DNA of 64,000 nucleotides from Patescibacteria group bacterium. Lineage in GTDB: Bacteria > Patescibacteriota > CPR2 > UBA1875. The notes under the pieces are model-generated. The model was given only the letters and a program-made list of their open reading frames with translations, was not told where the DNA came from and did no database searches. Made by a program: the position numbers and the translations under genes. Each line of letters opens with the position of its first letter. Within the stretch, counting starts at the first letter, position 1. The DNA lies in assembly GCA_041737595.1 (NCBI GenBank), contig JBGSRK010000005.1, positions 1,610 to 65,609 of the forward strand, read 5' to 3'. This document shows, piece after piece, positions 540 to 60,223 of this stretch.

Positions 540-746
540 ATGACCAATGAGAAAGTCCGTAAAGATTTTGGCAGTCAACTTAAGCATGCGAGAGAGAAGA
601 CTGGCCTGACCCAAGCACAGGTAGCCGAAAAATCGGGTATCAATATTAGCTATTATGCCAAGATTGAACGAGGAGAGGTCAATACATCTATCGAGAAACT
701 TCATAACATTATGAAAGTTTTGAAGATTAAATCGTTGGATATTTAA
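540..746 (+). CDS. XRE-family helix-turn-helix transcriptional regulator
   Basis: 68 aa with LTQAQVAEKSGINISYYAKIERGE, the classic Cro/C1 HTH. Divergent from the PLD-like gene. Confidence 0.8.
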   Translation: MTNEKVRKDFGSQLKHAREKTGLTQAQVAEKSGINISYYAKIERGEVNTSIEKLHNIMKVLKIKSLDI

Positions 747-9629: not shown

Positions 9630-9649
9630 TCATCATATATTTATATATA

Positions 9650-9692
9650 ACAAAAAGACAGCCCAGGGGGATGAGACTGTCTTTTTGTTTTC
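9650..9692 (+). terminator. Rho-independent terminator of pth
   Basis: Inverted repeat AAAAAGACAG...CTGTCTTTTT (10 bp) followed by TTTTGTTTT. Confidence 0.7.
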
Positions 9693-10112
9693 TCCCATCA
9701 ATAAACCGTGTCATACACTTGATCCGTTTCATTTTTAGACGGACGTTATTGTTGGGAGAGTCCCTCCGGCAAGCGAGTCGGCCTCAGGAGGGTGATGAGG
9801 TTTATTTGACCCAGCTTGCCAAAAGGGACACTTCCAGCAAATTTATTGATTTAATTTTCAAATTTTTTACCACATTTTATAAATCCGAGCGCGGTTACAA
9901 CCATTTTTTGGTCGACGTAGAAGTTTATCACATAAATTATTATTTGTCAACACTTTTTTTATGAATGTTGATAACCCCTCATAATAGATAATCTCTGACT
10001 AAATATAATAATATATTTTCACACTACATTACTACGTAGTAGCGTAGTGTCTAGGATATTAAACATAAAGACTATATTAATATATTTAAACTTAAGTGAT
10101 ATAATATTGCTT

Positions 10113-49877: not shown

Positions 49878-50501
49878 TTATTCCTTTTTTGCTTTCTCTT
49901 TTGAAATTAAAAGAACAACGCCCTTTTTTGGGCCAGGAACTGCACCTTGGACCAAAATAAGATTTTCTTCTTCCATAATTTTAACAATTTTTATATTTTT
50001 AGTTGTTACCTGAATAGCACCCATTCTGCCTGGTAATTTTTGTCCTTTTAAAACATGTTGTGGGAACATAGCACCTATAGAACCAGGGGCTCTATAATTA
50101 TGTGAACCATGGGTCTTTGGACCTCTGTGAAAATTATGTCTTTTAATTGTTCCTGCGAAACCTTTTCCCTTAGAAACACCGGTAATATCAACTAAATCAT
50201 TTTCTTCAAAGATATTAATTTCAATTTTGTCGCCTACTTGGTATGTTTTCCCATCTTCGGCTTTGACTTCTTTTAATTTTCTTGTTTGGGCTTTTGATTT
50301 TAATAAATGCCCTGCAAGTGGTTTAGATATTTTTTTTGATTTACCATAACCAAGCTGGATTGCTTCATAACCATCTTTTTCGGCTGTTTTTATTTGTGTG
50401 ACAACATTACCCTCAACTAAAAGCAAAGTAACAGGAACTAAATTCCCTTTTTCATCAAATATATGTGTCATCTCTACTTTTTTAGCAAGTAATGCTTTCA
50501 T
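49878..50501 (-). CDS. rplC: 50S ribosomal protein L3
   Basis: Canonical L3 ([13 protein letters not shown]...QIKT). Confidence 0.95.
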
Positions 50502-50617: not shown

Positions 50618-50646
50618 ATTATAGTGAATAATCAGACAAAAGTCAA
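50618..50646 (-). promoter_or_regulatory. Perfect-consensus sigma70 promoter TTGACT-N17-TATAAT driving rplC and the downstream r-protein operon, followed by a ~110-nt structured leader
   Basis: -35 at 50641-50646 and -10 at 50618-50623 on the minus strand. Confidence 0.6.
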
Positions 50647-51434
50647 GAATTTTTTACTAACTTCTTGCCTGCTCGATATCTTAAATATAATCTTGGATAG
50701 TTAAGAATATAAACAATTATACATAGAGGTTTTTGAAACGCAATTTTATGAGGCAAAAATGGCTCTCCGGTTGGATTAAATTTGAGTGTTCTTTTTTGAC
50801 CCGTTATATTTTCCCATATTTCTTTTTTATTAATTGTTTTGTTTGAAGAAATTTCTGTAAAAATTTTACCCATATCTGCTGGGAAAAAATGCATATCTGA
50901 CGCTCCAAATTTTAATACTTTATTATCTTTTTCAATATGTTCTTGTGCTTTTATGTTTCTAGATTCTCCTGTAAATGCATTAATTACTTCTATTGCATCA
51001 ATGTTAATCTCTTTATTATGTAAACCACGCAAAATACCCTTCCGGCCGAATGGGTGGGGAGCAACCACTGCACCTTTATACTTTTTGATTATTTTAATAA
51101 CCTCAGAAACATTTTTGAAATGTGGTATAAAGCCATTATTATATCTGTATTCTTTATAAAAATCTTTTATTTCTTGGATCTCATAAAAGTATGCAAGAAG
51201 TTCATATGGTAACCCTTTAATAGTAAATGTAAGTTCAATTCCGGGGAAAAAGATTATCCCAGCCTTCTCGGCATATTTTTCAGCTTTAATTGTCCCAATA
51301 ATTTCATTATGATCTGTGATTGAAAGTACTTTTATATTTTTATGTTTAGCATAAGCCACAATAAACCTAGGGAAATGTATCCCATCACTATTATTACTAT
51401 GAACATGTAAGTTAGCTTTATATGAGTATTCCAT
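50643..51434 (-). CDS. PHP-domain (polymerase/histidinol-phosphatase family) metal-dependent phosphoesterase
   Basis: N-terminal LHVHSNNSDG...ITDHN His motifs of the PHP fold. Confidence 0.8.
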   Translation of the reverse strand: MEYSYKANLHVHSNNSDGIHFPRFIVAYAKHKNIKVLSITDHNEIIGTIKAEKYAEKAGIIFFPGIELTFTIKGLPYELLAYFYEIQEIKDFYKEYRYNNGFIPHFKNVSEVIKIIKKYKGAVVAPHPFGRKGILRGLHNKEINIDAIEVINAFTGESRNIKAQEHIEKDNKVLKFGASDMHFFPADMGKIFTEISSNKTINKKEIWENITGQKRTLKFNPTGEPFLPHKIAFQKPLCIIVYILNYPRLYLRYRAGKKLVKNS

Positions 51435-51443
51435 AAATACTAC

Positions 51444-52658
51444 TTATTCATAACGGAGTGCTTCGATTGGATCTTTTTTAGCGGCGCGAAGAGCGGGCCA
51501 TAAGCCAAAAATTACACCTATTATGGTTGAGATTCCTATTGCAAGACCAACTACAGATGGAGTTATGGCGGGGGTCAAATCAGTTTTCGAAGCTACAACT
51601 CCTGAAACTGCAAATGAAATACCAAGCCCAATCAAACCACCAACCATTGTGACCATTACGGCTTCTATCAAAAATTGTAATGCAATGTCAAAACGTGTCG
51701 CACCAACTGCCTTCCGAAGACCTATTTCCTTTGTTCTTTCGGTGACAGTAACAAGCATAATATTCATAATTCCAATCCCACCAACAAGCAAGGATATTGA
51801 TGCAATTGCTGATACAAGAGTGGTTAACAACCCCAAAAGATCATCCAATAAACCAACGATATCATCTTGAGTAAGCACAGTGAAATCCTCTTCATTTTCA
51901 TGATTTTTAAGCATTGTGCTTTTTACGGACTCTTTTACATCGAGTACCTTATACCCGTCAGTTACTTTAATCATAATCCGTTGAATATTTACTTTATTTT
52001 GGTTTATCCTTGTGGCCGTATCAAATGGTATTGCAGCAAGAGTTGAAAATTGATCTCCAAAGACGCTAGATGCTTCAACTTCACTAAATACACCGATTAC
52101 CTTAAAATCTTCTTTCCCAACTTTTACAATTTTATTAACTGGGTCTTCATTTTCAAAAAGGTCTTTTTTTGTTTTTGGCCCTATAATTACAACATTACCT
52201 GATTTATTTGATTTAAAAGTAGCACCCGATTCTACCTTAATAATTTGTAATGTTTCCCCTATTTCGGGGTATGTCCCTATTATCATTGGGATAGTCTTTT
52301 TATCATTATATGATATTTCACCAGGGACAAGTGACATTGGTGCAATTTTATCAACTCCTTCTACTTCACTTATTTTATCCATATCACTTACAGTTAAAAC
52401 ATTCCCACTCACAAAATTTGCAGGATTTGTTTGCTGCATACCTTGAGGATTGTTTGTGTCTATTTTGCCAGCGACTACAAACAATAAATTAGAGCCGAAC
52501 CCTTTTACAAGACCCGAGACATCATTTTTTAAACCCTGCCCTAAAGAAATTAAAATTGTTACAGAAGATACTCCAATTACAATCCCAAGTACGGTTAAAA
52601 GACTTCTTACTTTATTACCAAAAATTGACATTAATGCACTTTTTATTCCCTCAATCAT
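51444..52658 (-). CDS. ABC transporter permease, FtsX/MacB family
   Basis: N-terminal TM, a large periplasmic domain, and a C-terminal FtsX 3-TM bundle. Confidence 0.85.
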   Translation of the reverse strand: MIEGIKSALMSIFGNKVRSLLTVLGIVIGVSSVTILISLGQGLKNDVSGLVKGFGSNLLFVVAGKIDTNNPQGMQQTNPANFVSGNVLTVSDMDKISEVEGVDKIAPMSLVPGEISYNDKKTIPMIIGTYPEIGETLQIIKVESGATFKSNKSGNVVIIGPKTKKDLFENEDPVNKIVKVGKEDFKVIGVFSEVEASSVFGDQFSTLAAIPFDTATRINQNKVNIQRIMIKVTDGYKVLDVKESVKSTMLKNHENEEDFTVLTQDDIVGLLDDLLGLLTTLVSAIASISLLVGGIGIMNIMLVTVTERTKEIGLRKAVGATRFDIALQFLIEAVMVTMVGGLIGLGISFAVSGVVASKTDLTPAITPSVVGLAIGISTIIGVIFGLWPALRAAKKDPIEALRYE

Positions 52659-53335
52659 TTTGCCTCCTTTATCAGCTTACCATCCATGATTTTATAGGTT
52701 CTTTTAGCATAATCTGCTATTTTTTGATCATGCGTAATAAGTATAATAGTCTTCCCCTTTTTATTTAAATCAACTAAAACTTTCATTATTTCTTGCCCAC
52801 TTTTTGAATCAAGATTTCCAGTGGGTTCATCAGCAAGTATTATATCAGGATCATTAATAAGAGCTCGCGCGATTGCAACTCTTTGAGTTTCGCCCCCTGA
52901 AAGTTCTGATGGCTTGTGTTTTATTCTATTTTTAAGACCAACTTCTGAAAGAAGATTAACAGCTCTTTCTTGAGCAGATTTTTTCCCAATTTTTTTATAG
53001 ATTGTTGGCATCACAACATTAGAAAGTGCTGTCATTTTATTCAAAAGATTAAACTGTTGGAAAATAAAACCAATTTTTTCGGAACGGATTTTAGCAAGCT
53101 TAGAATCTGGCATACTCATATTTATCTTTTTATTATCAATTAAAAGATCTCCAGAGGTTGGCCTATCAAGTAATCCTATTATGTGCATTAAGGTTGATTT
53201 GCCAGAGCCAGAGGGCCCCATAATAGCTATTATTTCTCCCTTTTCTACTTTAATAGAAATACCACAAACTGCGTTAACAGATAATTTACCTGATTTATAG
53301 GTTTTAGTAACATTTTTTAGTTCAATAATAGGCAT
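52655..53335 (-). CDS. ABC transporter ATP-binding protein (MacB/LolD-like)
   Basis: Walker A GPSGSGKST, signature LSGGETQRVAIARAL, Walker B ILADEPTGNLD. Confidence 0.9.
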   Translation of the reverse strand: MPIIELKNVTKTYKSGKLSVNAVCGISIKVEKGEIIAIMGPSGSGKSTLMHIIGLLDRPTSGDLLIDNKKINMSMPDSKLAKIRSEKIGFIFQQFNLLNKMTALSNVVMPTIYKKIGKKSAQERAVNLLSEVGLKNRIKHKPSELSGGETQRVAIARALINDPDIILADEPTGNLDSKSGQEIMKVLVDLNKKGKTIILITHDQKIADYAKRTYKIMDGKLIKEAK

Positions 53336-53336
53336 A

Positions 53337-54071
53337 TTATTTCCATTCCATTGTGGCCATCATTTTTTCAAAATAATTTGTAATTTCTGCTACAACTAAA
53401 TCTGTAGTACTTGTGCTTTCTGAATGGAAAAAATAATTATGGTTATTTTGAATTTGATAACCCGACCCAGTTTTAGGTATTGTAGAAATTGAATAACCAT
53501 TAAGATTAGCATTGTCACACATTAAATTTTCACCACTATTTAATGAATTATCTATCTCTTTTTTATTTGAAAGGATGAGTTTATTTGCCAATATTTCAGT
53601 TGAATAAGTAATATTCTTTTTAACACAAGTTCCTCCTCGACCAAATATTTCGTCCATATTTAATGAAATTGCATATTTTTTTTCCTGGTTATCAAAGATA
53701 ACATTATCAATAGAAAAAACATTTGAACCTACATAAGTACTACCACTGCTTGTCTCATTTTCACTAACAACAAAGGAGCTCGGGTATTTAATAGAAAAAT
53801 TATATTTAGTGCTTGTATACGTTTTCCAATCTTTCATTTCATCATTCGAAACAGACGAAGATGTCGTTTTATTAAAATTTAGTTTAGTAGAATAGTCTTC
53901 GTTATAATTTCTTGATCCTAAATACCAATATATTCCATAACCTATTAACGTTACAACAATTGCAAGAATTGAAAAAGCCGCAATAGTTTCTAAATGAAGA
54001 TTTTTCTTATTTATATCTTTTTCAACCTCTTTTTTAAATTCATCAACTTGTTTTTTCTCTTTTTCTGTCAT
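53337..54071 (-). CDS. Hypothetical membrane-anchored Ser/Asn-rich extracytoplasmic protein, cotranscribed with the ABC transporter
   Basis: N-terminal K/E-rich segment, then a TM (AAFSILAIVVTLIGYGIYWYL), then an S/T/N-rich domain. Confidence 0.5.
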   Translation of the reverse strand: MTEKEKKQVDEFKKEVEKDINKKNLHLETIAAFSILAIVVTLIGYGIYWYLGSRNYNEDYSTKLNFNKTTSSSVSNDEMKDWKTYTSTKYNFSIKYPSSFVVSENETSSGSTYVGSNVFSIDNVIFDNQEKKYAISLNMDEIFGRGGTCVKKNITYSTEILANKLILSNKKEIDNSLNSGENLMCDNANLNGYSISTIPKTGSGYQIQNNHNYFFHSESTSTTDLVVAEITNYFEKMMATMEWK

Positions 54072-54200
54072 AATTATCCCCTTTTTTGTTTTTTGTATTA
54101 ACCAACAAATATATTATCACTCTTGTCAATAAATATCAAACCAAAGCGCTTACTTAATAAGTTAATACTTTACTAATGTACATTAGTAAAGTGCTTTTTT

Positions 54201-54245
54201 ATAAAAAGCAATAGACCGGCCTCGCGAAATCGCGAAGACCGGTCT
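54201..54245 (-). terminator. Compound hairpin terminator at the downstream edge of GC island B
   Basis: AGACCGGCC-TCGCGAAATCGCGA-GACCGGTCT nested hairpin, then a U-run on the minus strand. Confidence 0.6.
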
Positions 54246-54252
54246 TTACTTG

Positions 54253-54543
54253 TTATACCTCATACACGCACATCGTTACTTCGCCCAGACAAGCTGGTGC
54301 TTCAGCATGATATATCTTGCCTGTAGCGTGCACTTCGATTCGATAATGTAGAGTTACTCCTTCAAGATTACCGGAAAGAAGTGTGAACGACCCCTTAATT
54401 GAATCAAGAAGATTGCGCTCATAGAGAGCATCAAGCAACTCTCTTCTAACTCGAATCGTTCCATTTGTTGTCTCTTTACCATCGGCCCGATAGACCTTTG
54501 TGAAAAGTGGTTCCCTGTTGGAAACCGCAGCATCTGTCCCCAT
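54253..54543 (-). CDS. Small ORFan protein B4 (96 aa) in high-GC island B
   Basis: RBS AAGGGGG 6 nt before the ATG; own promoter TTGACG-N17-TATTAT at 54622-54650; GC about 45-48% versus about 30% background. Confidence 0.5.
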   Translation of the reverse strand: MGTDAAVSNREPLFTKVYRADGKETTNGTIRVRRELLDALYERNLLDSIKGSFTLLSGNLEGVTLHYRIEVHATGKIYHAEAPACLGEVTMCVYEV

Positions 54544-54621
54544 CTCGTTACCCCCTTAAACTGATGGAATGAGTTTTTTCGACATATGCTGTGGTGCTTG
54601 AGGCATTTAACAAGCAAAACA

Positions 54622-54650
54622 ATAATAACTTTAATTTTGAGCCACGTCAA
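54622..54650 (-). promoter_or_regulatory. Promoter TTGACG-N17-TATTAT for ORF B4
   Basis: -35 at 54645-54650 and -10 at 54622-54627 on the minus strand. Confidence 0.45.
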
Positions 54651-54669
54651 GCCAATATTATATTAACTT

Positions 54670-54702
54670 AGAAAAACACCCTAGGTATATTTCAACCTAG
54701 GG
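54670..54702 (-). terminator. Internal terminator after the B1-B2-B3 operon
   Basis: CCCTAGG-N10-CCTAGGG hairpin followed by UGUUUUU on the minus strand. Confidence 0.55.
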
Positions 54703-54725
54703 TAGTTGCTCAACCAACGAGGCTT

Positions 54726-55031
54726 TCACCGATGTATCCTTGGATCAATTTGGGAAGTGAGTTCAAAATCAAAATACCTTATCTTCCCCTCCCCTTCACA
54801 AACAGTCCGGTAGACACAGTTGAACCTTCGCCCCTTGTTTCCAATTTCGAAGACTCCAACCGAAGTCTGAAACGCCTCAGCCCGGGAACCAAGTCGAATC
54901 CCGAACTTAGCCAACGTTCTACGTGCCTCGGCTACTATTTCGGTACACGATTGGCATGGATCTTTCCCGACAAGAGGGACCGTAATGATGCCATAGTTGG
55001 TCCTTCTATAACCAGAAGTGTCGCACTCCAT
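54726..55031 (-). CDS. Small ORFan Cys-containing protein B3 (about 101 aa) in high-GC island B
   Basis: Start at MECD with a perfect RBS GAGGAGG 6 nt upstream, 9 nt after the B2 stop. The track ORF extends to 55055 from a less likely start. Confidence 0.5.
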   Translation of the reverse strand: MECDTSGYRRTNYGIITVPLVGKDPCQSCTEIVAEARRTLAKFGIRLGSRAEAFQTSVGVFEIGNKGRRFNCVYRTVCEGEGKIRYFDFELTSQIDPRIHR

Positions 55032-55042
55032 CTTGAGCCTCC

Positions 55043-55330
55043 TCACGTCGCCCATTGCTTGAGTATGACATTACCATCCTTGAGTGAACATGAATACACC
55101 GACATAAGGATGCCGGTTCGGGAATGAACCTGAATTCTGACAACTTGTGATAGATATCCACTTCGTGGGACGATGTTCTTATTGACATCGAATGCACGAA
55201 ATGACGTATCGCACTCGCTATCAGGAAGGCCATACCCATTGGAACGAATACGACGAAGTTCAGTGAAGACACACTCGAGCATATCTTCGTCAGGGCAACC
55301 TATGAGCTCAATGTTTATAGGCTCATTCAT
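55043..55330 (-). CDS. Small ORFan protein B2 (about 95 aa) in high-GC island B
   Basis: ATG overlaps the B1 stop in an ATGA coupling; RBS GAGGTGG upstream. The track ORF extends to 55366. Confidence 0.5.
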   Translation of the reverse strand: MNEPINIELIGCPDEDMLECVFTELRRIRSNGYGLPDSECDTSFRAFDVNKNIVPRSGYLSQVVRIQVHSRTGILMSVYSCSLKDGNVILKQWAT

Positions 55331-55605
55331 GCTGCCACCTCTTCGATACCCGAGATAGTATACCAAGCTTTCACCTGGTAAGTACTATCTGTCTTTTCGA
55401 CACGAGCTTCCACCTTTTGACCATCCGTATTAGTAAAATCAATACGAATGATTTTCTTGATGACGATTTTGACACTTACTGTCTTAAAACCGTAAACAAG
55501 AAGTAGAAGCTTCTCACAAGCAAGAGTCAGGGTACATATTTCTTTTGCGGTTGGACGTCCAGCTGAGGACTCAATCGCAAGATCAAGAATGTTATTCACA
55601 TCCAT
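55327..55605 (-). CDS. Small ORFan protein B1 (about 92 aa) in high-GC island B
   Basis: Start at MDVNN with a GGGGGG RBS. The longer track ORF (to 55650) would overlap the extended -10 element TGGTATATA at 55651-55659. Confidence 0.45.
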   Translation of the reverse strand: MDVNNILDLAIESSAGRPTAKEICTLTLACEKLLLLVYGFKTVSVKIVIKKIIRIDFTNTDGQKVEARVEKTDSTYQVKAWYTISGIEEVAA

Positions 55606-55687
55606 TTTGAGCCCCCCTTGGGTTCCTACCGTCTCTGACGTTATCGGCATTATATACCAAAAAAACTAATTTTAAAAGAATAAAAAA

Positions 55688-55717
55688 CAAAAAAAGCAGC
55701 TTTCGCTGCTTTTTTTG
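55688..55717 (-). terminator. Bidirectional terminator separating rpsJ from island B
   Basis: AGCAGC-TTTC-GCTGCT hairpin flanked by an A-run and a T-run. Confidence 0.65.
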
Positions 55718-55762
55718 AATAGTTCTAGACCATCCGCCCATTGGCGAATAAAGTCTTCGGTT

Positions 55763-56083
55763 TTACATTTTTATTTCGATATCAACACCCGCTGGTAGAG
55801 AAATATTCATTAGACTATCAATTGTCTTCGCATTTGGTTCAAGAATATCTATAAGTCTTTTATGAACTCTCATTTCAAACTGTTCTCGGGCATTTTTATC
55901 AACATTCGAAGCCCTAAGCACTGTTATTGGAGTTCGATCAGTTGGAAGCGGAATCGGACCAGAAATTTTTGAACCACTTCTTTGCGCGGTTTCAATTATT
56001 TGTTTAACAGACTGGTCAATGATCTTATGATCATATGCTTTCAGTTTAATTCTGATTCTTTGAGGTTTCTTTTCTTCTACCAT
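55763..56083 (-). CDS. rpsJ: 30S ribosomal protein S10
   Basis: [17 protein letters not shown]-terminal block. Confidence 0.95.
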
Positions 56084-56112: not shown

Positions 56113-57291
56113 TTATTTTGTAATCTTTGTTACTATACCCGCACCAACTGTTCTACCACCTTCTCGGATAGCGAACTTAAGACCTTGGTCCATAGCAATT
56201 GGTTGCATAAGTTTAACATTGAAAGTGATTTTATCACCTGGCATTACCATTTCGGTACCTGCAGGCAGTTCTACTTCTCCTGTAACATCTGTTGTTCGAA
56301 TATAGAATTGAGGTTTGTATCCTTTAAAGAATGGTGTATGTCGTCCACCTTCTTCTTTTGTTAGGATATAAACTTCTGCTTCAAATTCTGTGTGAGGTGT
56401 AATTGAACCTGGTTTTGCAAGAACCATACCACGTTCGATATCATCTTTTTCAATACCACGTAGTAAAAGTCCTGCGTTATCACCAGCTTGACCTTGGTCA
56501 AGTTGTTTTTTGAACATTTCTACACCAGTAACAACAGTTTTTCTTGTTTCTTTTATCCCAACAATTTCTACTTCTTCATTGATTTTAATAATACCTGATT
56601 CAATACGACCCGTAGCAACTGTTCCACGACCTTTAATCGAGAAAACATCTTCTACCGGCATAAGGAAAGGTTTATCTAAATCACGAACTGGTTCTGGGAT
56701 AAAATCATCAAGAGCTTTAACAAGTTCAAGTATAGATTCTTCATATTTAGCATCGCCTTCAAGAGCTTTAAGAGCTGAACCACGAATAATTGGAGCATTG
56801 TCTCCATCAAAATCATATTTTGAAAGCAATTCTCTAATTTCCATTTCAACAAGATCAAGCATTTCTTCATCGGCTACCATGTCACATTTATTCATAAAAA
56901 CAACAATTTTAGCTACACCAACTTGGTTAGCAAGCAAAATGTGTTCACGAGTTTGTGGCATTGGACCATCTGTTGCAGCTACAACTAATATAGCTCCGTC
57001 CATCTGAGCTGCGCCGGTAATCATGTTTTTAACATAATCTGCATGACCCGGACAGTCAACGTGTGCATAATGTCTTTTATCTGATTCATATTCAACGTGA
57101 GCGGTAGAAATAGTTATACCACGTTCACGTTCTTCAGGGGCTTTATCAATATTTTCGAAGGCAGTAAATTCTGCTTTACCGTCTTTTGAAAGAACTTTAG
57201 TAATAGCAGCTGTCAAAGTTGTTTTCCCATGGTCTACGTGACCTATAGTACCGACATTGACATGAGGTTTTGAACGATCAAATGTTGCCAT
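56113..57291 (-). CDS. tuf: Elongation factor Tu
   Basis: [23 protein letters not shown] and NKCD motifs. Confidence 0.97.
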
Positions 57292-57424: not shown

Positions 57425-57456
57425 CTAAAATGACAGGACCCCGCCGGTTGGCGGGG
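57425..57456 (-). terminator. GC-rich hairpin terminator at the downstream edge of island A
   Basis: ACCCCGCC-GGTT-GGCGGGGT stem; a weak U-tract follows on the minus strand. Confidence 0.5.
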
Positions 57457-57478
57457 TCAATGGACAAGAAGAGGATCA

Positions 57479-57656
57479 TTCAGTCGAGGTGCATGTATGA
57501 AAAGGCTGCGTCACGTTCTTCGCGAAAAGTGCGTACCTTCGGCGAAACCAGTGATGCCAACCAAATCGGAAATTCGATCAGCATACACATAATCGCGCTG
57601 AGTACGACGAGAGTGATCAAAACCGAATCGATCACCCATTCTTTGAATCTAAACAT
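57479..57656 (-). CDS. Small hydrophobic protein A2 (58 aa), second gene of high-GC island A
   Basis: Hand-translated MFRFKEWVIDSVLITLVVLSAIMCMLIEFPIWLASLVSPKVRTFREERDAAFSYMHLD. RBS GGAGG 5 nt upstream; starts 8 nt after the A1 stop; below the track size cutoff. Confidence 0.45.
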
Positions 57657-57666
57657 AGCGGCCTCC

Positions 57667-57987
57667 CTATCCTAGGCCCATTTCGTTGAGCTCGTCGAGA
57701 GTCGAGTTGTAGTCGGGCTCAAAGTTCGGTTTGATGAAACGGCCATGAATTCGAGATTCTTCGAGTTCCCTCACAAGCATATCATGTGCGGGCTTGTTGT
57801 GACATTGAGTACAAACGCTCGGCGACTCAAAGTCACAGTCGATACAGATCGCCGGATCAGGCCTGCCGGAGTTCTTTGCTCGCAACAGACGGATGACTCC
57901 GCCTGCCACAACTACTACAAAAGCGACCAAAAGAACCAAAACGATGGCACCTTCGGTTGTCGAGATAAGACCAATGAACCTCCCCAT
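57667..57987 (-). CDS. Membrane-anchored zinc-ribbon protein A1 (106 aa), first gene of high-GC island A
   Basis: N-terminal TM (AIVLVLLVAFVVVVAGGVIRLL), then CIDC-x8-CTQC; strong RBS GGGAGG; GC about 50%. Confidence 0.5.
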   Translation of the reverse strand: MGRFIGLISTTEGAIVLVLLVAFVVVVAGGVIRLLRAKNSGRPDPAICIDCDFESPSVCTQCHNKPAHDMLVRELEESRIHGRFIKPNFEPDYNSTLDELNEMGLG

Positions 57988-58038
57988 GTTTCCTCCCTTA
58001 GGTTCGCACGGATTTACACCGTGAATATTAATACGATT

Positions 58039-58066
58039 ATTATATAATATTTTTAAAATAATTCAA
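58039..58066 (-). promoter_or_regulatory. Promoter TTGAAT-N16-TATAAT for island A
   Basis: -35 at 58061-58066 and -10 at 58039-58044 on the minus strand; a small hairpin and the RBS follow. Confidence 0.5.
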
Positions 58067-58072
58067 TAACAC

Positions 58073-58099
58073 AAAAAGAGCCCACATGGGCTCTTTTTT
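58073..58099 (-). terminator. Palindromic terminator after fusA
   Basis: AGAGCCCA-CA-TGGGCTCT hairpin with flanking A and T runs. Confidence 0.7.
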
Positions 58100-58111
58100 A
58101 TAATTATTTTG

Positions 58112-60223
58112 TTATTCAGTTTCTAGATCTACTTCTGTTTCTGATTCTAATTTACTGCCACGTTTTGCTTTAATTTCTTCGGCAATGTTATTTGGAACTT
58201 CTTCATAATGGTCAAATTCCATTGCATAAGAAGCTCTTCCTTGAGTCATAGAACGAAGGGATGTTGCATAACCAAACATTTCTGAAAGTGGGACAAAAGC
58301 ATCTACCACTTTTGCACTAGCCCTATCTTCCATCTTTTGAATTCGGCCACGTTTTGAGTTAAGGTCACCCATAACATCACCCATAAATTCTTCAGGGGTT
58401 ACAACTTCTACTTTCATAACAGGCTCCATAATTACTGGTTTACCCTTTTTAACACCTTCTTGGAAAGCCATTGAACCTGCAATTTTAAAAGCCATTTCTG
58501 ATGAATCAACTTCGTGATATGAACCTTCAAGAAGTGTAACTTTAATATCTACAACTGGGTATCCAGCGATAACACCATTAGCCATAGCATCTTTAACCCC
58601 TTGTTCAACTGGTTTTATATATTCTTTTGGTACAGAACCACCAACAATTTTGTTTACGAATTCAAATCCTCCGCCTTGTTCCATCGGTTCAACTTCAAGC
58701 CAAACGTGACCATATTGACCACGACCACCAGTCTGTTTGATATATTTACCTTCAGCTTTATTAGCATTTTTAATTGTTTCACGGTAAGCAACTTGAGGTT
58801 TACCAACATTTGCCTCAACCTTAAATTCTCTTTTCATACGATCAACAATAATTTCAAGATGTAATTCACCCATACCACCAATAATTGTTTGGTTTGTATC
58901 TTCATCAGTTCTAACCACAAAAGTTGGATCTTCTTCTGCTAAACGAGAAAGTGCAACACCCATTTTTTCTTGGTCAGCTTTAGTTTTTGGTTCTATTGCA
59001 ATATGAATAACTGGATCAGGGAAAGTTATTGCCTCAAGTATTACTGGATTTGCAGCATCACAAAGTGTATCTCCAGTTGTAACTTTTTTCAAGCCAACTG
59101 CAGCTGCAATCTCTCCTGAATATACTTGATCAACATCTTCTCTCTGATTTGCATGTAATCTAATAATTCGGCCTAAACGCTCTTTTTCACCAGTGGTTGA
59201 ATTATGAACATATGAACCAGCCATAATTGTTCCAGAATATACACGGAAAAATGCGAGTTTACCAACAAATGGATCAGATGCAATTTTGAAAGCAAGAGCA
59301 GTAAATGGTTCTTCGTCAGAAGCATGTCTTTCAACCTCTTCGCCTGTCTTAACATCAATTGCCTTAATTGCAGGAACATCAAGTGGGTTTGGTAAAAAAT
59401 TTACGATAGCATCAAGTAATGTTTCTACTATTACTCCTCGTCCATCACCACCCATAATTGGAAAAAAATCACCGGCTAGAACAGATTTTCGAATAGCTGT
59501 AATAAGTTCTTCTTCGGTCAGTTCTCCCCCGTTAAGATATTTTTCCATTATAACTTCATCAGCTTCTACAGCTTTTTCTAAAAGCTCGTGTCTATATTTT
59601 TCGACTTTTTCTTTCATATCTTCAGGGATTTCAATTTCAGTTAATTCTTTATCTTTATAATCTGTATATTTGTATGCTTTTCTAGTAATAATATCGACAA
59701 CACCATTTATGGCTTGTTCAAAACCTATTGGTAATTGTATAGGATATGCATTTTTTGAAAGTCTTTCTTTTATTGAATCAAGGGATTTATAAAAATCTCC
59801 ACCAGTTTGATTTATTTTATTAATAAAACAAATTCGTGGGACATGATATTTATCAGCTTGGCGCCAAACTGTTTCAGATTGAGGTTCTACACCCATTTTC
59901 CCATCAAAAACCACAACTGCACCATCAAGCACTCGAAGTGAACGTTCAACTTCAACTGTAAAGTCCACGTGTCCTGGAGTATCAATAATATTTATTCTTT
60001 TTTGTTTCCAAAAACAAGTTGTTGCTGCAGAAGTAATTGTTATCCCACGTTCTCTTTCCTGTTCCATCCAATCCATAGTTGCTTCACCTTCGTGAACTTC
60101 ACCTATTTTATGAGTTTTACCAGTTCTATAAAGAACACCTTCTGTAACTGTGGTTTTACCGGCATCTATATGTGCGATAATACCAATATTTCTAGTATCT
60201 TTTAAGCTATATTCTCGAGCCAT
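58112..60223 (-). CDS. fusA: Elongation factor G
   Basis: [17 protein letters not shown] and full five-domain EF-G blocks. Confidence 0.97.

What the first reader, a model, noticed from the sequence alone, without database searches (positions are those of the whole stretch)
54160..55725. High-GC four-gene ORFan cassette splitting rpsJ from rplC
A 1.5-kb segment at about 45-48% GC sits in a roughly 30% GC genome, exactly where S10 (rpsJ) and L3 (rplC) are normally contiguous. It is bracketed by hairpin terminators at 55688-55717 and 54201-54245.

It has its own extended -10 promoter. Three small ORFs (92-101 aa) are translationally coupled, with an ATGA start/stop overlap and perfect GAGGAGG/GAGGTGG RBSs. 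An internal terminator follows, then a separate promoter driving a fourth small ORF. None of the four proteins resembles any family I recognise.

The operon-like organisation, foreign composition and insertion into one of the most conserved gene orders in bacteria suggest horizontal acquisition. Candidates are a mobile, defence or toxin-antitoxin-like module, but the function is entirely open.
Basis: partly seen in the sequence, partly recalled or inferred. Interest (0 to 1): 0.85.

Follow-up and report, generated by a model that had tools for sequence, protein, structure and literature searches.

The report
GC-rich small-gene array beside rpsJ
The flagged segment holds four real but functionally unknown small-protein genes, one instance of a clade-wide pattern in an uncultured ultra-small (Patescibacteria) bacterium in which GC-rich mini-genes with their own promoters and terminators fill fixed gaps in the translation-gene cluster.

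Summary
The anatomy is real. Four minus-strand ORFs (92, 95, 101 and 96 aa) have strong RBSs, two promoters and three hairpins. Their GC3 is 0.36-0.48, against a host median of 0.195. They code for protein: dN/dS is 0.13-0.47.

The framing needs correcting:
- rplC lies 3.7 kb beyond the cassette, after four genes of host composition.
- A second GC-rich islet sits between fusA and tuf.
- In Patescibacteria these junctions are commonly interrupted.
- Tiny homologous families exist only in close relatives, at the same positions. They are GC-rich everywhere, each with its own promoter and terminator.

ORF4 always precedes the same membrane-protein gene. ORF5/6 share a conserved promoter and 5'UTR with a relative. 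Recent foreign insertion is therefore unsupported for these genes. It stays possible for ORF1-3, which are patchy.

I found no match in Pfam, PHROGs, PADLOC, NCBIfam, PDB, phages or plasmids, and no integrase or repeats. The ORF4 model is a generic cystatin/NTF2-like roll. ORF4-family mRNAs carry a conserved box in the 5'UTR that is complementary to codons 2-7.

Best reading: a clade-specific, fast-turnover array of moron-like small-gene units. Function is unknown, and the long-lived GC excess is unexplained.

The parts
55763..56083 (-). rpsJ (ribosomal protein S10), the upstream core-gene anchor of islet 1
   Evidence: Pfam Ribosomal_S10, E 4e-35. GC3 is 0.22. Similarity to relatives L084 and L091 stops exactly at its stop codon.
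55688..55717 (-). Terminator-like hairpin directly after rpsJ
   Evidence: 13-bp stem plus T-tract. MFE -18.0 kcal/mol, z -5.35.
55649..55676 (-). Promoter-like site P1 (TTTAAA-16-TATAAT) for ORF1-3
   Evidence: 10/12 match with no TG extension. The -10 overlaps the upstream ATG at 55650, which argues for the 92-aa start at 55605.
55327..55605 (-). ORF1, 92 aa (a longer 107-aa reading starts at 55650). Predicted helix-helix-beta protein.
   Evidence: Homologue P0005 is 92 aa, 47% identical, and aligns from residue 20 of the long form. dN/dS 0.47. GC3 0.36. No family hit.
55043..55330 (-). ORF2, 95 aa. Its ATG overlaps the ORF1 TGA (ATGA), and a GAGGTGG RBS precedes it. Four Cys are conserved in its one known homologue.
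   Evidence: Sequence. Homologue P0003 is 68% identical with the same 4-nt overlap in L082. dN/dS 0.15.
54726..55031 (-). ORF3, 101 aa. The GAGGAGG RBS overlaps the ORF2 stop codon.
   Evidence: 81% identical in L082 and 39% in L083 (P0010), where it lies directly after rpsJ. dN/dS 0.13. Low-confidence model shows beta-alpha-beta4 topology.
54677..54704 (-). Terminator-like hairpin ending the ORF1-3 operon
   Evidence: MFE -18.9 kcal/mol, z -4.45.
54622..54650 (-). Promoter-like site P2 (TTGACG-17-TATTAT) for ORF4
   Evidence: 10/12 match. It aligns with the promoters of ORF4-family genes in five other loci.
54524..54597 (-). Candidate mRNA element of ORF4. The conserved 5'UTR box (54581-54595, within GCACCACAGCATATGTCG at 54580-54597) is complementary to codons 2-7 (54524-54538). 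Pairing would enclose the SD and AUG in a closed loop of about 42 nt.
   Evidence: The box occurs once in the window (expected 0.03) and once upstream of every ORF4-family gene with DNA in hand. RNAalifold predicts the helix. 95% of cells pair in register against 31-57% when slid, with no compensatory change.
54253..54543 (-). ORF4, 96 aa, a stand-alone gene of a family found only in this clade. The N-terminus MGTDA[AE]V and the C-terminal motif LGE[VI] are invariant, and nearly all members end in YEV.
54201..54245 (-). Terminator-like hairpin after ORF4
   Evidence: MFE -27.7 kcal/mol, z -6.41.
53337..54071 (-). p244, a membrane-anchored 244-aa protein of host composition and the conserved downstream partner of ORF4
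   Evidence: GC3 0.18. Weak PsbP_2 hit, E 0.003. Homologues in L084, L085, L091 and L120.
51444..53335 (-). MacB-type ABC transporter: ATPase 52655-53335 and permease 51444-52658, both of host composition
   Evidence: Pfam ABC_tran, MacB_PCD and FtsX. The same order ORF4 - p244 - TM protein - ABC occurs in L120.
50643..51434 (-). PHP-domain phosphoesterase, a native member of the rpsJ-rplC gap in this clade
   Evidence: Pfam PHP, E 1e-9. Homologues lie before rplC in L083, L084, L085 and L093. In L091 and L092 the contig ends before rplC.
49878..50501 (-). rplC (ribosomal protein L3), the real downstream ribosomal neighbour
   Evidence: Pfam Ribosomal_L3, E 2e-18.
57437..58098 (-). Islet 2 between fusA and tuf, built the same way: terminator 58073-58098, promoter 58039-58066, conserved 5'UTR hairpin 58007-58023, ORF5 57667-57987 (106 aa; TM helix plus Cys4 motif and HD), ORF6 57480-57656 (58 aa; TM), terminator 57437-57458.
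   Evidence: GC3 is 0.56. Homologous pairs lie in fusA|tuf of L084, L087 and L089. The spacers are conserved with L087 while the ORF bodies are about 50% identical at nucleotide level.

Best explanation
The segment is one instance of a clade-specific array of autonomous small-gene units, not a single foreign cassette.

Each unit is a promoter, one to three small ORFs and a terminator, as in a phage 'moron'. In this Patescibacteria lineage the units occupy fixed junctions of the str-S10 translation cluster: fusA|tuf, rpsJ|p244 and, in relatives, PHP|rplC.

Shown:
- The ORFs are real genes under purifying selection.
- They encode either small soluble alpha+beta proteins or small membrane proteins. 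ORF4 is a cystatin/NTF2-like roll. ORF2 and ORF3 probably share its beta-alpha-beta4 topology.
- The proteins are rich in Cys and Arg.
- Their families occur only in this clade.
- The set of units differs between close relatives.
- Every unit is GC-rich relative to its genome.
- ORF4 (with p244) and ORF5/6 are long-standing syntenic residents.
- ORF1-3 are a patchy, translationally coupled operon.

Inferred:
- ORF1-3 probably form a complex.
- ORF4 translation is probably controlled by a helix between its 5'UTR and its first codons.
- Units are gained, lost or replaced by homologous recombination. The conserved flanking genes and spacers would serve as homology arms after DNA uptake.
- The proteins act as binding or inhibitor-type accessory factors in epibiont-host, interbacterial or phage conflict. 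This last step is a guess, at about 0.2.
For: Composition:
- GC3 is 0.36-0.56 against 0.195 +/- 0.027.
- Cys is 3.2% against 0.4%, and R/(K+R) is 0.61 against 0.18-0.31.

Coding: dN/dS is 0.13-0.47, and only the sense frames stay open across homologues.

Homologues and their contexts:
- The full HMMER search found P0001-P0010. The ORF4 profile search found 8 members.
- L082 carries the ORF1-3 operon with the same ATGA overlap.
- L083 has an ORF3-like gene right after rpsJ.
- L084 and L085 have 10 or more small GC-rich ORFs at the same junctions.
- L087 and L089 have ORF5/6-like genes in fusA|tuf.
- L091, L092 and L093 carry different sets of small ORFs.
- L120 and L086 keep the ORF4-p244 linkage.
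- The 46 clade proteins fall into 9 small families and 12 singletons.

Unit architecture: promoters and terminators flank each unit in the window and in L084, where promoters match 10-11/12.

Long residence:
- Promoter, 5'UTR and terminator are conserved with L087 at 33-35 of 40 positions, while the ORF bodies are about 50% identical at nucleotide level.
- Fourfold sites differ at 62% in the islet and 42% in the flanks. GC4 is 0.6-0.7 against 0.12 in both genomes.

GC excess is special to this clade: 135 small gap ORFs in other CPR genomes average a GC3 excess of -0.04, and only 2 exceed +0.15.

Hotspot nature: gaps are 0.4-6.4 kb across Saccharibacteria and CPR2 but 17-54 bp in the Bacillota- and Chloroflexota-labelled MAGs among the 80 loci.

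Recombination route:
- Saccharibacteria are naturally competent and integrate DNA by homologous recombination (PMC10633639).
- Predicted HGT and genomic islands in Patescibacteria are enriched in tuf and ribosomal-protein genes (PMC12455944).
- DprA is encoded in the window.
Against: - The ORF1-3 model is low-confidence, with pLDDT 54.5.
- The recombination route is inferred. No recombination breakpoints or phylogenetic incongruence were shown.
- Flanking genes show no GC3 gradient.
- The persistent GC excess is not explained by this model. mRNA-structure selection is only marginal: z is -1.73 against -1.02, p = 0.044.
- Ancient acquisition from a very GC-rich donor with slow amelioration is not excluded.
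- ORF1-3 are known from only two sources, so recent acquisition of that operon remains possible.
- Most related contigs are short metagenomic fragments.
Confidence: 0.55

Rival explanations
1. One reading: the 1.5-kb block is a recently acquired foreign cassette from a GC-richer donor, inserted downstream of rpsJ as a mobile, defence or toxin-antitoxin module.
For: - Composition is deviant in GC1-3, Arg/Lys and Cys, with sharp boundaries.
- ORF1-3 are patchy: they appear only in this organism and one 76%-identical variant contig.
- Units are self-contained, with promoter, RBS and terminator.
Against: - ORF4 and ORF5/6 have syntenic homologues in relatives, with conserved promoters and UTRs.
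- GC excess persists although synonymous sites are largely turned over.
- The spacers have host-like composition.
- No donor was found among 1.84 billion representative proteins outside the clade.
- There is no integrase, transposase or repeat.
- PADLOC, Pfam and PHROGs give no hit.
Confidence: 0.2
2. The units are phage-derived morons or remnants of a clade-specific prophage or other mobile element of about 50-55% GC. That element would repeatedly seed these junctions.
For: - The promoter-ORF-terminator build with deviant composition is the defining moron pattern.
- L088 is a 2.2-kb contig made only of such ORFs at 53.5% GC.
- The best BFVD matches are uncharacterised phage proteins, but they are weak (E at least 0.009).
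Against: - IMG/VR has no relative of the ORF3, ORF4 or ORF5 families or of ORF1-3.
- tblastn against 50,697 phage and 72,556 plasmid records found nothing.
- No PHROG matches.
- No phage structural or integration genes lie nearby.
- The two IMG/VR matches to the UTR box are chance hits inside a structural gene.
Confidence: 0.1
3. The genes are ordinary vertically inherited clade-specific genes. Their GC-rich codon usage is actively maintained, for example by selection on mRNA stability or structure, by rare-codon control of expression, or by a gene-specific substitution bias.
For: - Orthologous ORF5/6 keep GC4 of 0.6-0.7 in two genomes whose flanks have GC4 of 0.12, although 62% of shared fourfold sites differ.
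- The boundaries coincide with ORF ends.
- All 26 tested islet mRNAs but one fold better than synonymous shuffles, with mean z of -1.73.
- A conserved UTR-CDS helix in ORF4 mRNAs shows RNA-level constraint.
Against: - The structure z-scores are only marginally below those of host genes (p = 0.044) and are not conserved between homologues: ORF1 scores -4.7 and its L082 homologue -1.1.
- Amino-acid composition is also shifted, which codon-level selection does not explain.
- Unit content varies between close relatives.
Confidence: 0.3
4. The ORFs are spurious, and the GC-rich segment is a structured non-coding RNA or an assembly artefact.
For: - In AT-rich genomes structured RNAs are GC-rich.
- Long antisense ORFs exist here.
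Against: - dN/dS is well below 1 in the annotated frames.
- Only the sense frames are conserved open.
- Protein families have conserved motifs.
- The AF2 model of ORF4 is confident.
- No Rfam hit appears at gathering or relaxed thresholds.
- Two independent SRA assemblies are 100% identical to the window.
Confidence: 0.02

Closest known systems
Phage 'morons' (independent promoter-gene-terminator units between conserved phage genes; Hendrix/Juhala concept, from my own knowledge)
   Same: The units are autonomous, with their own promoter and terminator. They are inserted between genes that are adjacent in other genomes. Their nucleotide composition differs from the surroundings, and their presence varies between relatives.
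   Different: These units lie in a bacterial chromosome inside the str-S10 translation cluster, not in a phage or prophage. No phage relatives were found. Some units are long-term syntenic residents.
Chromosomal HGT hotspots or 'islets' flanked by core genes (Oliveira et al. 2017 concept, from my own knowledge)
   Same: Variable accessory genes concentrate at a few fixed intervals between conserved core genes. No integrase is present. Turnover by homologous recombination through the flanks is the proposed mechanism.
   Different: Here the flanks are fusA, tuf and rpsJ themselves. The cargo consists only of 58-135-aa ORFan proteins. The cargo keeps a uniform GC excess across the clade.
Arrays of orphan immunity genes of polymorphic-toxin, T6SS or CDI systems
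   Same: Both are tandem arrays of small, fast-evolving, lineage-restricted proteins, often with alpha+beta (NTF2- or cystatin-like) folds, whose content varies between strains.
   Different: No toxin gene, no known immunity family (Pfam) and no secretion-system context was found. Immunity function is untested.
Free-standing homing-endonuclease genes between conserved genes (T-even phage seg/mob; 'intronless homing')
   Same: Both are small selfish ORFs with their own promoters that sit between highly conserved genes and spread by recombination with the flanks.
   Different: Pfam and NCBIfam find no GIY-YIG, HNH, LAGLIDADG or PD-(D/E)xK motif. The proteins are about 95 aa, and one class is membrane-bound.
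Type II toxin-antitoxin operons, including tripartite forms
   Same: ORF1-3 are small, translationally coupled genes with overlapping stop and start codons.
   Different: No toxin or antitoxin domain was found, and no DNA-binding fold is predicted. PADLOC and Pfam are negative.

Membership tests
Phage moron | Self-contained transcription unit: own promoter, ORF(s) and terminator | tested here: met
   Promoter-like sites match 10/12, and strong hairpins flank ORF1-3, ORF4 and ORF5-6. The same holds for each unit in L084. These are consensus and folding predictions, not transcript data.
Phage moron | Lies between genes that are adjacent in related genomes, and its composition differs from the surroundings | tested here: met
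   L001 has fusA|tuf of 198 bp and rpsJ|rplC of 274 bp. The Bacillota- and Chloroflexota-labelled MAGs have rpsJ|rplC gaps of 17-54 bp. GC3 is 0.36-0.56 against 0.195.
Phage moron | Resides in a phage or prophage genome | tested here: not met
   The flanks are fusA, tuf, rpsJ and an ABC transporter. No phage genes are present. No PHROG, IMG/VR or INPHARED relative was found.
Toxin-antitoxin system | Recognisable toxin and antitoxin domains in adjacent small genes | tested here: not met
   Pfam, NCBIfam and PADLOC give no significant hit for ORF1-4. No PDB sequence hit was found.
Toxin-antitoxin system | Growth inhibition by one component, neutralised by its partner | not testable with these tools
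   This requires expression experiments.
Known anti-phage defence systems (PADLOC-DB 2.0) | Match to a defence-system protein model | tested here: not met
   No family matched any of seven proteins at E up to 1.
Integron gene cassette | attC recombination site at the cassette end and an integron integrase with attI nearby | tested here: not met
   The five hairpins have unrelated sequences, and each is followed by a T-tract. No shared repeat family was found. No integrase-sized ORF lies in the cluster, though I made no specific attC model search.
Integrase- or transposase-borne genomic island | Recombinase gene, flanking direct or inverted repeats, often a tRNA target | tested here: not met
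   The only similarity between the two islets is a 34-nt AT-rich stretch at 71% identity. No terminal repeats were found. No recombinase is present, and the tRNAs lie 22 kb away.
Free-standing homing endonuclease gene | Nuclease domain (GIY-YIG, HNH, LAGLIDADG or similar) | tested here: not met
   Pfam and NCBIfam show no such domain. ORF5 has a Cys4+HD motif, but it is membrane-anchored and lacks the conserved His of HNH.
Cystatin/NTF2-like/Mog1-PsbP-like alpha+beta roll (fold class only) | A helix packed on a curved antiparallel beta-sheet | tested here: inconclusive
Cis-regulatory mRNA structure (new candidate; ORF4 family) | Conserved base-paired helix supported by covariation | tested here: inconclusive
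   A 14-bp UTR-CDS helix pairs in 95% of cells in six sequences, against 31-57% when slid. There are 0 compensatory double changes, and 9 of 14 pairs never vary.

The most novel reading that the evidence does not exclude
The GC-rich, Cys/Arg-rich mini-genes would be a dedicated, actively maintained class of conflict or interaction genes of this epibiotic lineage, acting as effector-, immunity- or inhibitor-like binders. They would be parked at the junctions of the most conserved and most highly expressed genes so that those genes serve as universal homology arms for exchange by natural transformation. Their non-host codon usage, together with RNA elements such as the ORF4 UTR-CDS helix, would be selected as an expression-control layer. 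This would be a chromosomal 'moron exchange' system with no recombinase and no phage.
Probability: 0.15. Interest if true: 0.8.

Novelty: new variant of a known kind. Interest (0 to 1): 0.6.

Why it matters
Patescibacteria make up a large share of bacterial diversity, and most of their lineage-specific genes have no known function.

This locus shows that part of that 'dark' gene content is organised:
- It forms arrays of autonomous mini-genes at fixed junctions inside the translation-gene cluster.
- Close relatives carry different sets.
- The genes keep a compositional signature that has outlasted near-saturation of synonymous sites.

That combination challenges the routine reading 'GC-deviant, therefore recently transferred'. 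It may also explain why island-prediction tools flag translation genes as horizontally acquired in this phylum.

The locus offers three concrete handles for experiments in the now genetically tractable Saccharibacteria-like systems: a conserved ORF4-p244-ABC linkage, a candidate translational-control helix, and a three-gene coupled operon.

If the function is mundane, the value is mainly cautionary for HGT inference.

Tried and rejected
- **Structured RNA.** Rfam gave only four tRNAs elsewhere at gathering thresholds, and sub-threshold noise on the islets. Rejected.
- **Curated protein libraries.** Pfam, PHROGs, PADLOC and NCBIfam found nothing for ORF1-6. PDB sequence searches with four family profiles found nothing.
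- **Phage or plasmid origin.** All of the following were negative: blastn and tblastn against INPHARED and PLSDB, four IMG/VR protein-pattern scans, and one DNA-motif scan whose two hits were chance matches.
- **Concatenated queries.** Concatenated-ORF queries to the k-mer-indexed protein search returned nothing, although identical proteins exist in the collection. This cost two of the three searches. The index-free HMMER search worked.
- **Common origin of ORF3 and ORF4.** hhalign probability was 0.2%. The shared topology rests only on models.
- **Terminal repeats or att sites.** None found.
- **Dual coding or antisense genes.** Antisense ORFs are not conserved.
- **gBGC-like regional effect.** There is no GC3 gradient in the flanking genes, and the S10 excess of +0.06 is within control scatter.
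- **mRNA-structure selection as the cause of high GC.** The difference from host genes is marginal.
- **AFDB Foldseek.** The library was unavailable.
- **L120's 70%-GC end as a clue to a GC-rich donor.** It is a phosphoglucomutase fragment that interrupts the permease, most likely a chimeric contig.
- **L086 as an 'unrelated context' for ORF4.** This was corrected: its downstream flank is the same p244 promoter as in L120.


Full report
**What is in the window.** All genes here are on the minus strand. The order is rpoC, rpsL, rpsG, fusA (58112-60223), tuf (56113-57291), rpsJ (55763-56083), and then the flagged segment. After the rpsJ stop codon come, in order:
- a hairpin with a T-tract (55717-55688)
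- a promoter-like site (TTTAAA-16-TATAAT, 55676-55649)
- ORF1, ORF2 and ORF3
- a second hairpin (54704-54677)
- a second promoter-like site (TTGACG-17-TATTAT, 54650-54622)
- ORF4
- a third, very stable hairpin (54245-54201)

ORF1's TGA overlaps ORF2's ATG (ATGA). ORF2's stop codon lies inside the GAGGAGG RBS of ORF3. The 107-aa reading of ORF1 would start inside the -10 hexamer. The 92-aa start at 55605 fits the promoter and the 92-aa homologue P0005.

**Is the composition shift real?** Yes.
- The segment is 43.0% GC, against 33.0 +/- 2.8% for all windows of equal length. Only this segment and one other region exceed 40%.
- The excess sits in the ORF bodies. GC3 is 0.36-0.48, and 0.56 in the second region, against a host median of 0.195 (MAD 0.027).
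- The promoter and terminator spacers are 29-37% GC.
- Flanking genes show no GC3 gradient towards the boundaries.
- The encoded proteins are also unusual for this genome. Cys is 3.2% against 0.4%, and R/(K+R) is 0.61 against 0.18-0.31.

rplC is at 49878-50501. Four genes of host composition lie between ORF4 and rplC:
- a 244-aa membrane protein (p244)
- a MacB-type ABC ATPase
- a MacB-type ABC permease
- a PHP-domain protein

A second islet with the same build lies between fusA and tuf. It has a terminator, a promoter, ORF5 (a TM helix plus a Cys4 motif and HD), ORF6 (a TM protein) and another terminator.

**Are the ORFs genes?** Yes.
- An index-free HMMER search of 1.84 billion representative proteins found ten proteins. 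Two are identical to ORF3 and ORF4.
- The others are homologues of ORF1 (47%), ORF2 (68%), ORF3 (39%), ORF4 (44-50%) and ORF5 (46-54%).
- A 1058-bp contig (L082) carries the ORF1-ORF2-ORF3 operon at 76% nucleotide identity, with the same 4-nt overlap.
- dN/dS is 0.47, 0.15 and 0.13 for ORF1-3, and about 0.3 for ORF4 against two homologues.
- Only the sense frames stay open across homologues.
- Two independent SRA assemblies match the window at 100% across rpsJ, ORF1-4, p244 and the start of the ABC ATPase gene.
- Rfam finds nothing.

**Where the homologues are.** They lie at the same junctions in relatives whose tuf is 88-94% and S10 85-93% identical to the window.
- L083 has an ORF3-like gene directly after rpsJ and before PHP and rplC.
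- L084 and L085 have small ORFs in fusA|tuf, including an ORF5-like one. Between rpsJ and rplC they have about ten more, including an ORF4-like gene immediately upstream of the p244 homologue.
- L087 and L089 have ORF5- and ORF6-like genes between fusA and tuf.
- L091, L092 and L093 carry other sets of small ORFs.
- L120 has the order ORF4-like, p244-like, TM protein, ABC ATPase, permease.
- L086 has an ORF4-like gene followed by the same p244 promoter as L120, but different upstream genes.

In every case the small ORFs have GC of 0.47-0.59 and GC3 of about 0.4-0.75. Neighbouring core genes have GC3 of 0.15-0.45. Forty-six such proteins fall into nine small families and twelve singletons.

In L084 each unit has its own near-consensus promoter and terminator.

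**Wider context.**
- A scan of species-representative genomes with S10 put the window nearest to an unclassified 'bacterium ELA257' (77%) and a CPR2 genome (73%), followed by many Saccharibacteria.
- In those genomes fusA|tuf, tuf|rpsJ and rpsJ|rplC are frequently 0.4-6.4 kb and hold variable ORFs. In the Bacillota- and Chloroflexota-labelled MAGs of the same set rpsJ|rplC is 17-54 bp.
- In that wider set the small gap ORFs are not GC-rich. Their GC3 excess averages -0.04 +/- 0.10, and only 2 of 135 exceed +0.15.
- Interruption of this gene order is therefore a phylum-level habit. The GC-rich cargo is special to the window's clade.

**Recent transfer or long residence?**
- In the alignment of islet 2 with L087, the fusA terminator region, the -10 element, a 5'UTR hairpin (CACGG-N7-CCGTG) with the SD, the islet terminator and the tuf promoter are conserved at 33-35 of 40 positions. 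The ORF5 and ORF6 bodies are about 50% identical, and L087 has an extra paralogue. That is orthology.
- Shared fourfold sites differ at 42% in the flanks, where GC4 is 0.12 in both genomes. They differ at 62% in the islet, where GC4 is 0.6-0.7 in both (n = 32 sites).
- With that much turnover, neutral amelioration would need an ancestral GC4 close to 1.0. Either the source was extremely GC-rich, or the excess is maintained.
- ORF4 is likewise a stable partner of p244.
- 'Recent foreign insertion' is therefore not supported for ORF4 or ORF5/6. It stays open for ORF1-3, which are known from only two sources.

**What the proteins look like.**
- No curated library recognises them, and PDB sequence searches are negative.
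- An AlphaFold2 model of ORF4 built from eight family members is confident, with pLDDT 84.6 and pTM 0.76. Its topology is beta-alpha-beta4.
- Foldseek against PDB and BFVD finds nothing below E 0.001.
- A fused model of ORF1-3 is poor (pLDDT 54.5). It suggests the same beta-alpha-beta4 topology for ORF2 and ORF3.
- hhalign sees no sequence relationship between the ORF3 and ORF4 families.
- ORF5 is a membrane-anchored Cys4 protein with an invariant HD. ORF6 is a small TM protein.

**An RNA element found on the way.**
- Every ORF4-family gene with DNA in hand carries the box GCACCACAGCRTWTGTCG in its 5'UTR.
- The box is more conserved than the protein, which is 43-63% identical across the family.
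- It is complementary to codons 2-7. This probably explains the invariant N-terminus MGTDA.
- RNAalifold predicts the helix. In six sequences 95% of cells pair in register, against 31-57% when slid. There is no compensatory change.
- The helix would enclose the SD and AUG in a closed loop, which suggests translational control. It remains a candidate only.

**Mechanism: what is shown and what is inferred.**

Shown:
- The units are autonomous, as far as consensus promoters and terminator hairpins can show.
- The ORFs are real genes, restricted to the clade.
- Unit content varies between relatives.
- The compositional signature is long-lived.
- No recombinase or repeats are present.
- No phage or plasmid relatives were found.

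Inferred:
- Turnover goes by homologous recombination through the very conserved flanks and spacers after DNA uptake.
- Support for this is indirect. Saccharibacteria are naturally competent and integrate DNA by homologous recombination (PMC10633639). Predicted HGT and genomic islands in Patescibacteria are enriched in tuf and ribosomal-protein genes (PMC12455944). DprA is encoded in the window.

Guessed: small binder or inhibitor-type roles in host, competitor or phage conflict.

**The GC excess is unexplained.**
- mRNA-structure selection is only marginally stronger than in host genes (z -1.73 against -1.02; p = 0.044).
- A regional effect such as biased gene conversion is not supported by the flanks.

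**Verdict.** This is not a lone foreign cassette that splits rpsJ from rplC. It is one locus of a clade-wide array of moron-like mini-genes at fixed junctions of the translation cluster.

I found no description of this pattern in the searched literature, but that search was not exhaustive.

Noticed in passing
window 57437-58098: A second GC-rich islet (49-51% GC) lies between fusA and tuf. It has its own terminator, promoter, ORF5 (TM helix plus Cys4 motif and HD) and ORF6 (TM protein). It is built like the flagged segment and is conserved in relatives.
   Followed up: yes
window 54524-54597 (also L084 9948-9965, L086 2250-2267, L088 1782-1799, L120 885-902): A conserved 18-nt box in the 5'UTR of all ORF4-family genes is complementary to codons 2-7. 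It is a candidate long-range helix that encloses the SD and AUG. No covariation supports it yet.
   Followed up: yes
window 58007-58023; L087 about 770-790: A conserved 5'UTR hairpin, CACGG-N7-CCGTG, lies just upstream of the ORF5 SD. L087 shares it with loop differences only.
   Followed up: partly
L003-L080 (about 50 Saccharibacteria and other CPR genomes): The fusA|tuf, tuf|rpsJ and rpsJ|rplC junctions are commonly 0.4-6.4 kb and filled with variable ORFs of host-like GC. A 15-member family recurs in rpsJ|rplC and an 8-member family in fusA|tuf. These families were not characterised.
   Followed up: partly
window 50643-54071: This clade natively carries p244, a MacB-type ABC transporter and a PHP-domain phosphoesterase between rpsJ and rplC. 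That content is unusual for an S10 operon. The ORF4-p244(-ABC) linkage is conserved in L084, L085, L086 and L120.
   Followed up: partly
window 9630-10046: The spacer between peptidyl-tRNA hydrolase and DprA holds a 97-codon ORF (9671-9964). Its protein looks implausible and its GC3 is elevated (0.43). It may be an unrecognised ncRNA. Rfam gives no hit even at relaxed thresholds.
   Followed up: partly
window 540-746 (+) and 55-270: There is a small XRE-type HTH gene (Pfam HTH_3, E 8e-14) at about 40% GC. A neighbouring short ORF has GC3 of 0.54. Both are mildly GC-elevated relative to the genome.
   Followed up: no
L120 3900-4148: The contig switches abruptly to about 70% GC. That stretch encodes, on the opposite strand, a phosphoglucomutase-like fragment that truncates the ABC permease. 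It is most likely a chimeric metagenomic assembly, not evidence of a GC-rich donor.
   Followed up: partly
window ORF1 (55327-55605) and ORF2 (55043-55330): The two mRNAs fold much better than synonymous-codon shuffles (z -4.7 and -3.5). Their L082 homologues do not (z -1.1 and -1.9).
   Followed up: partly
tool behaviour (vs 28, 45): The k-mer-indexed protein search returns nothing for concatenated multi-ORF queries, even when a 100%-identical protein is in the collection. Single-family queries and the index-free search do find them.
   Followed up: yes
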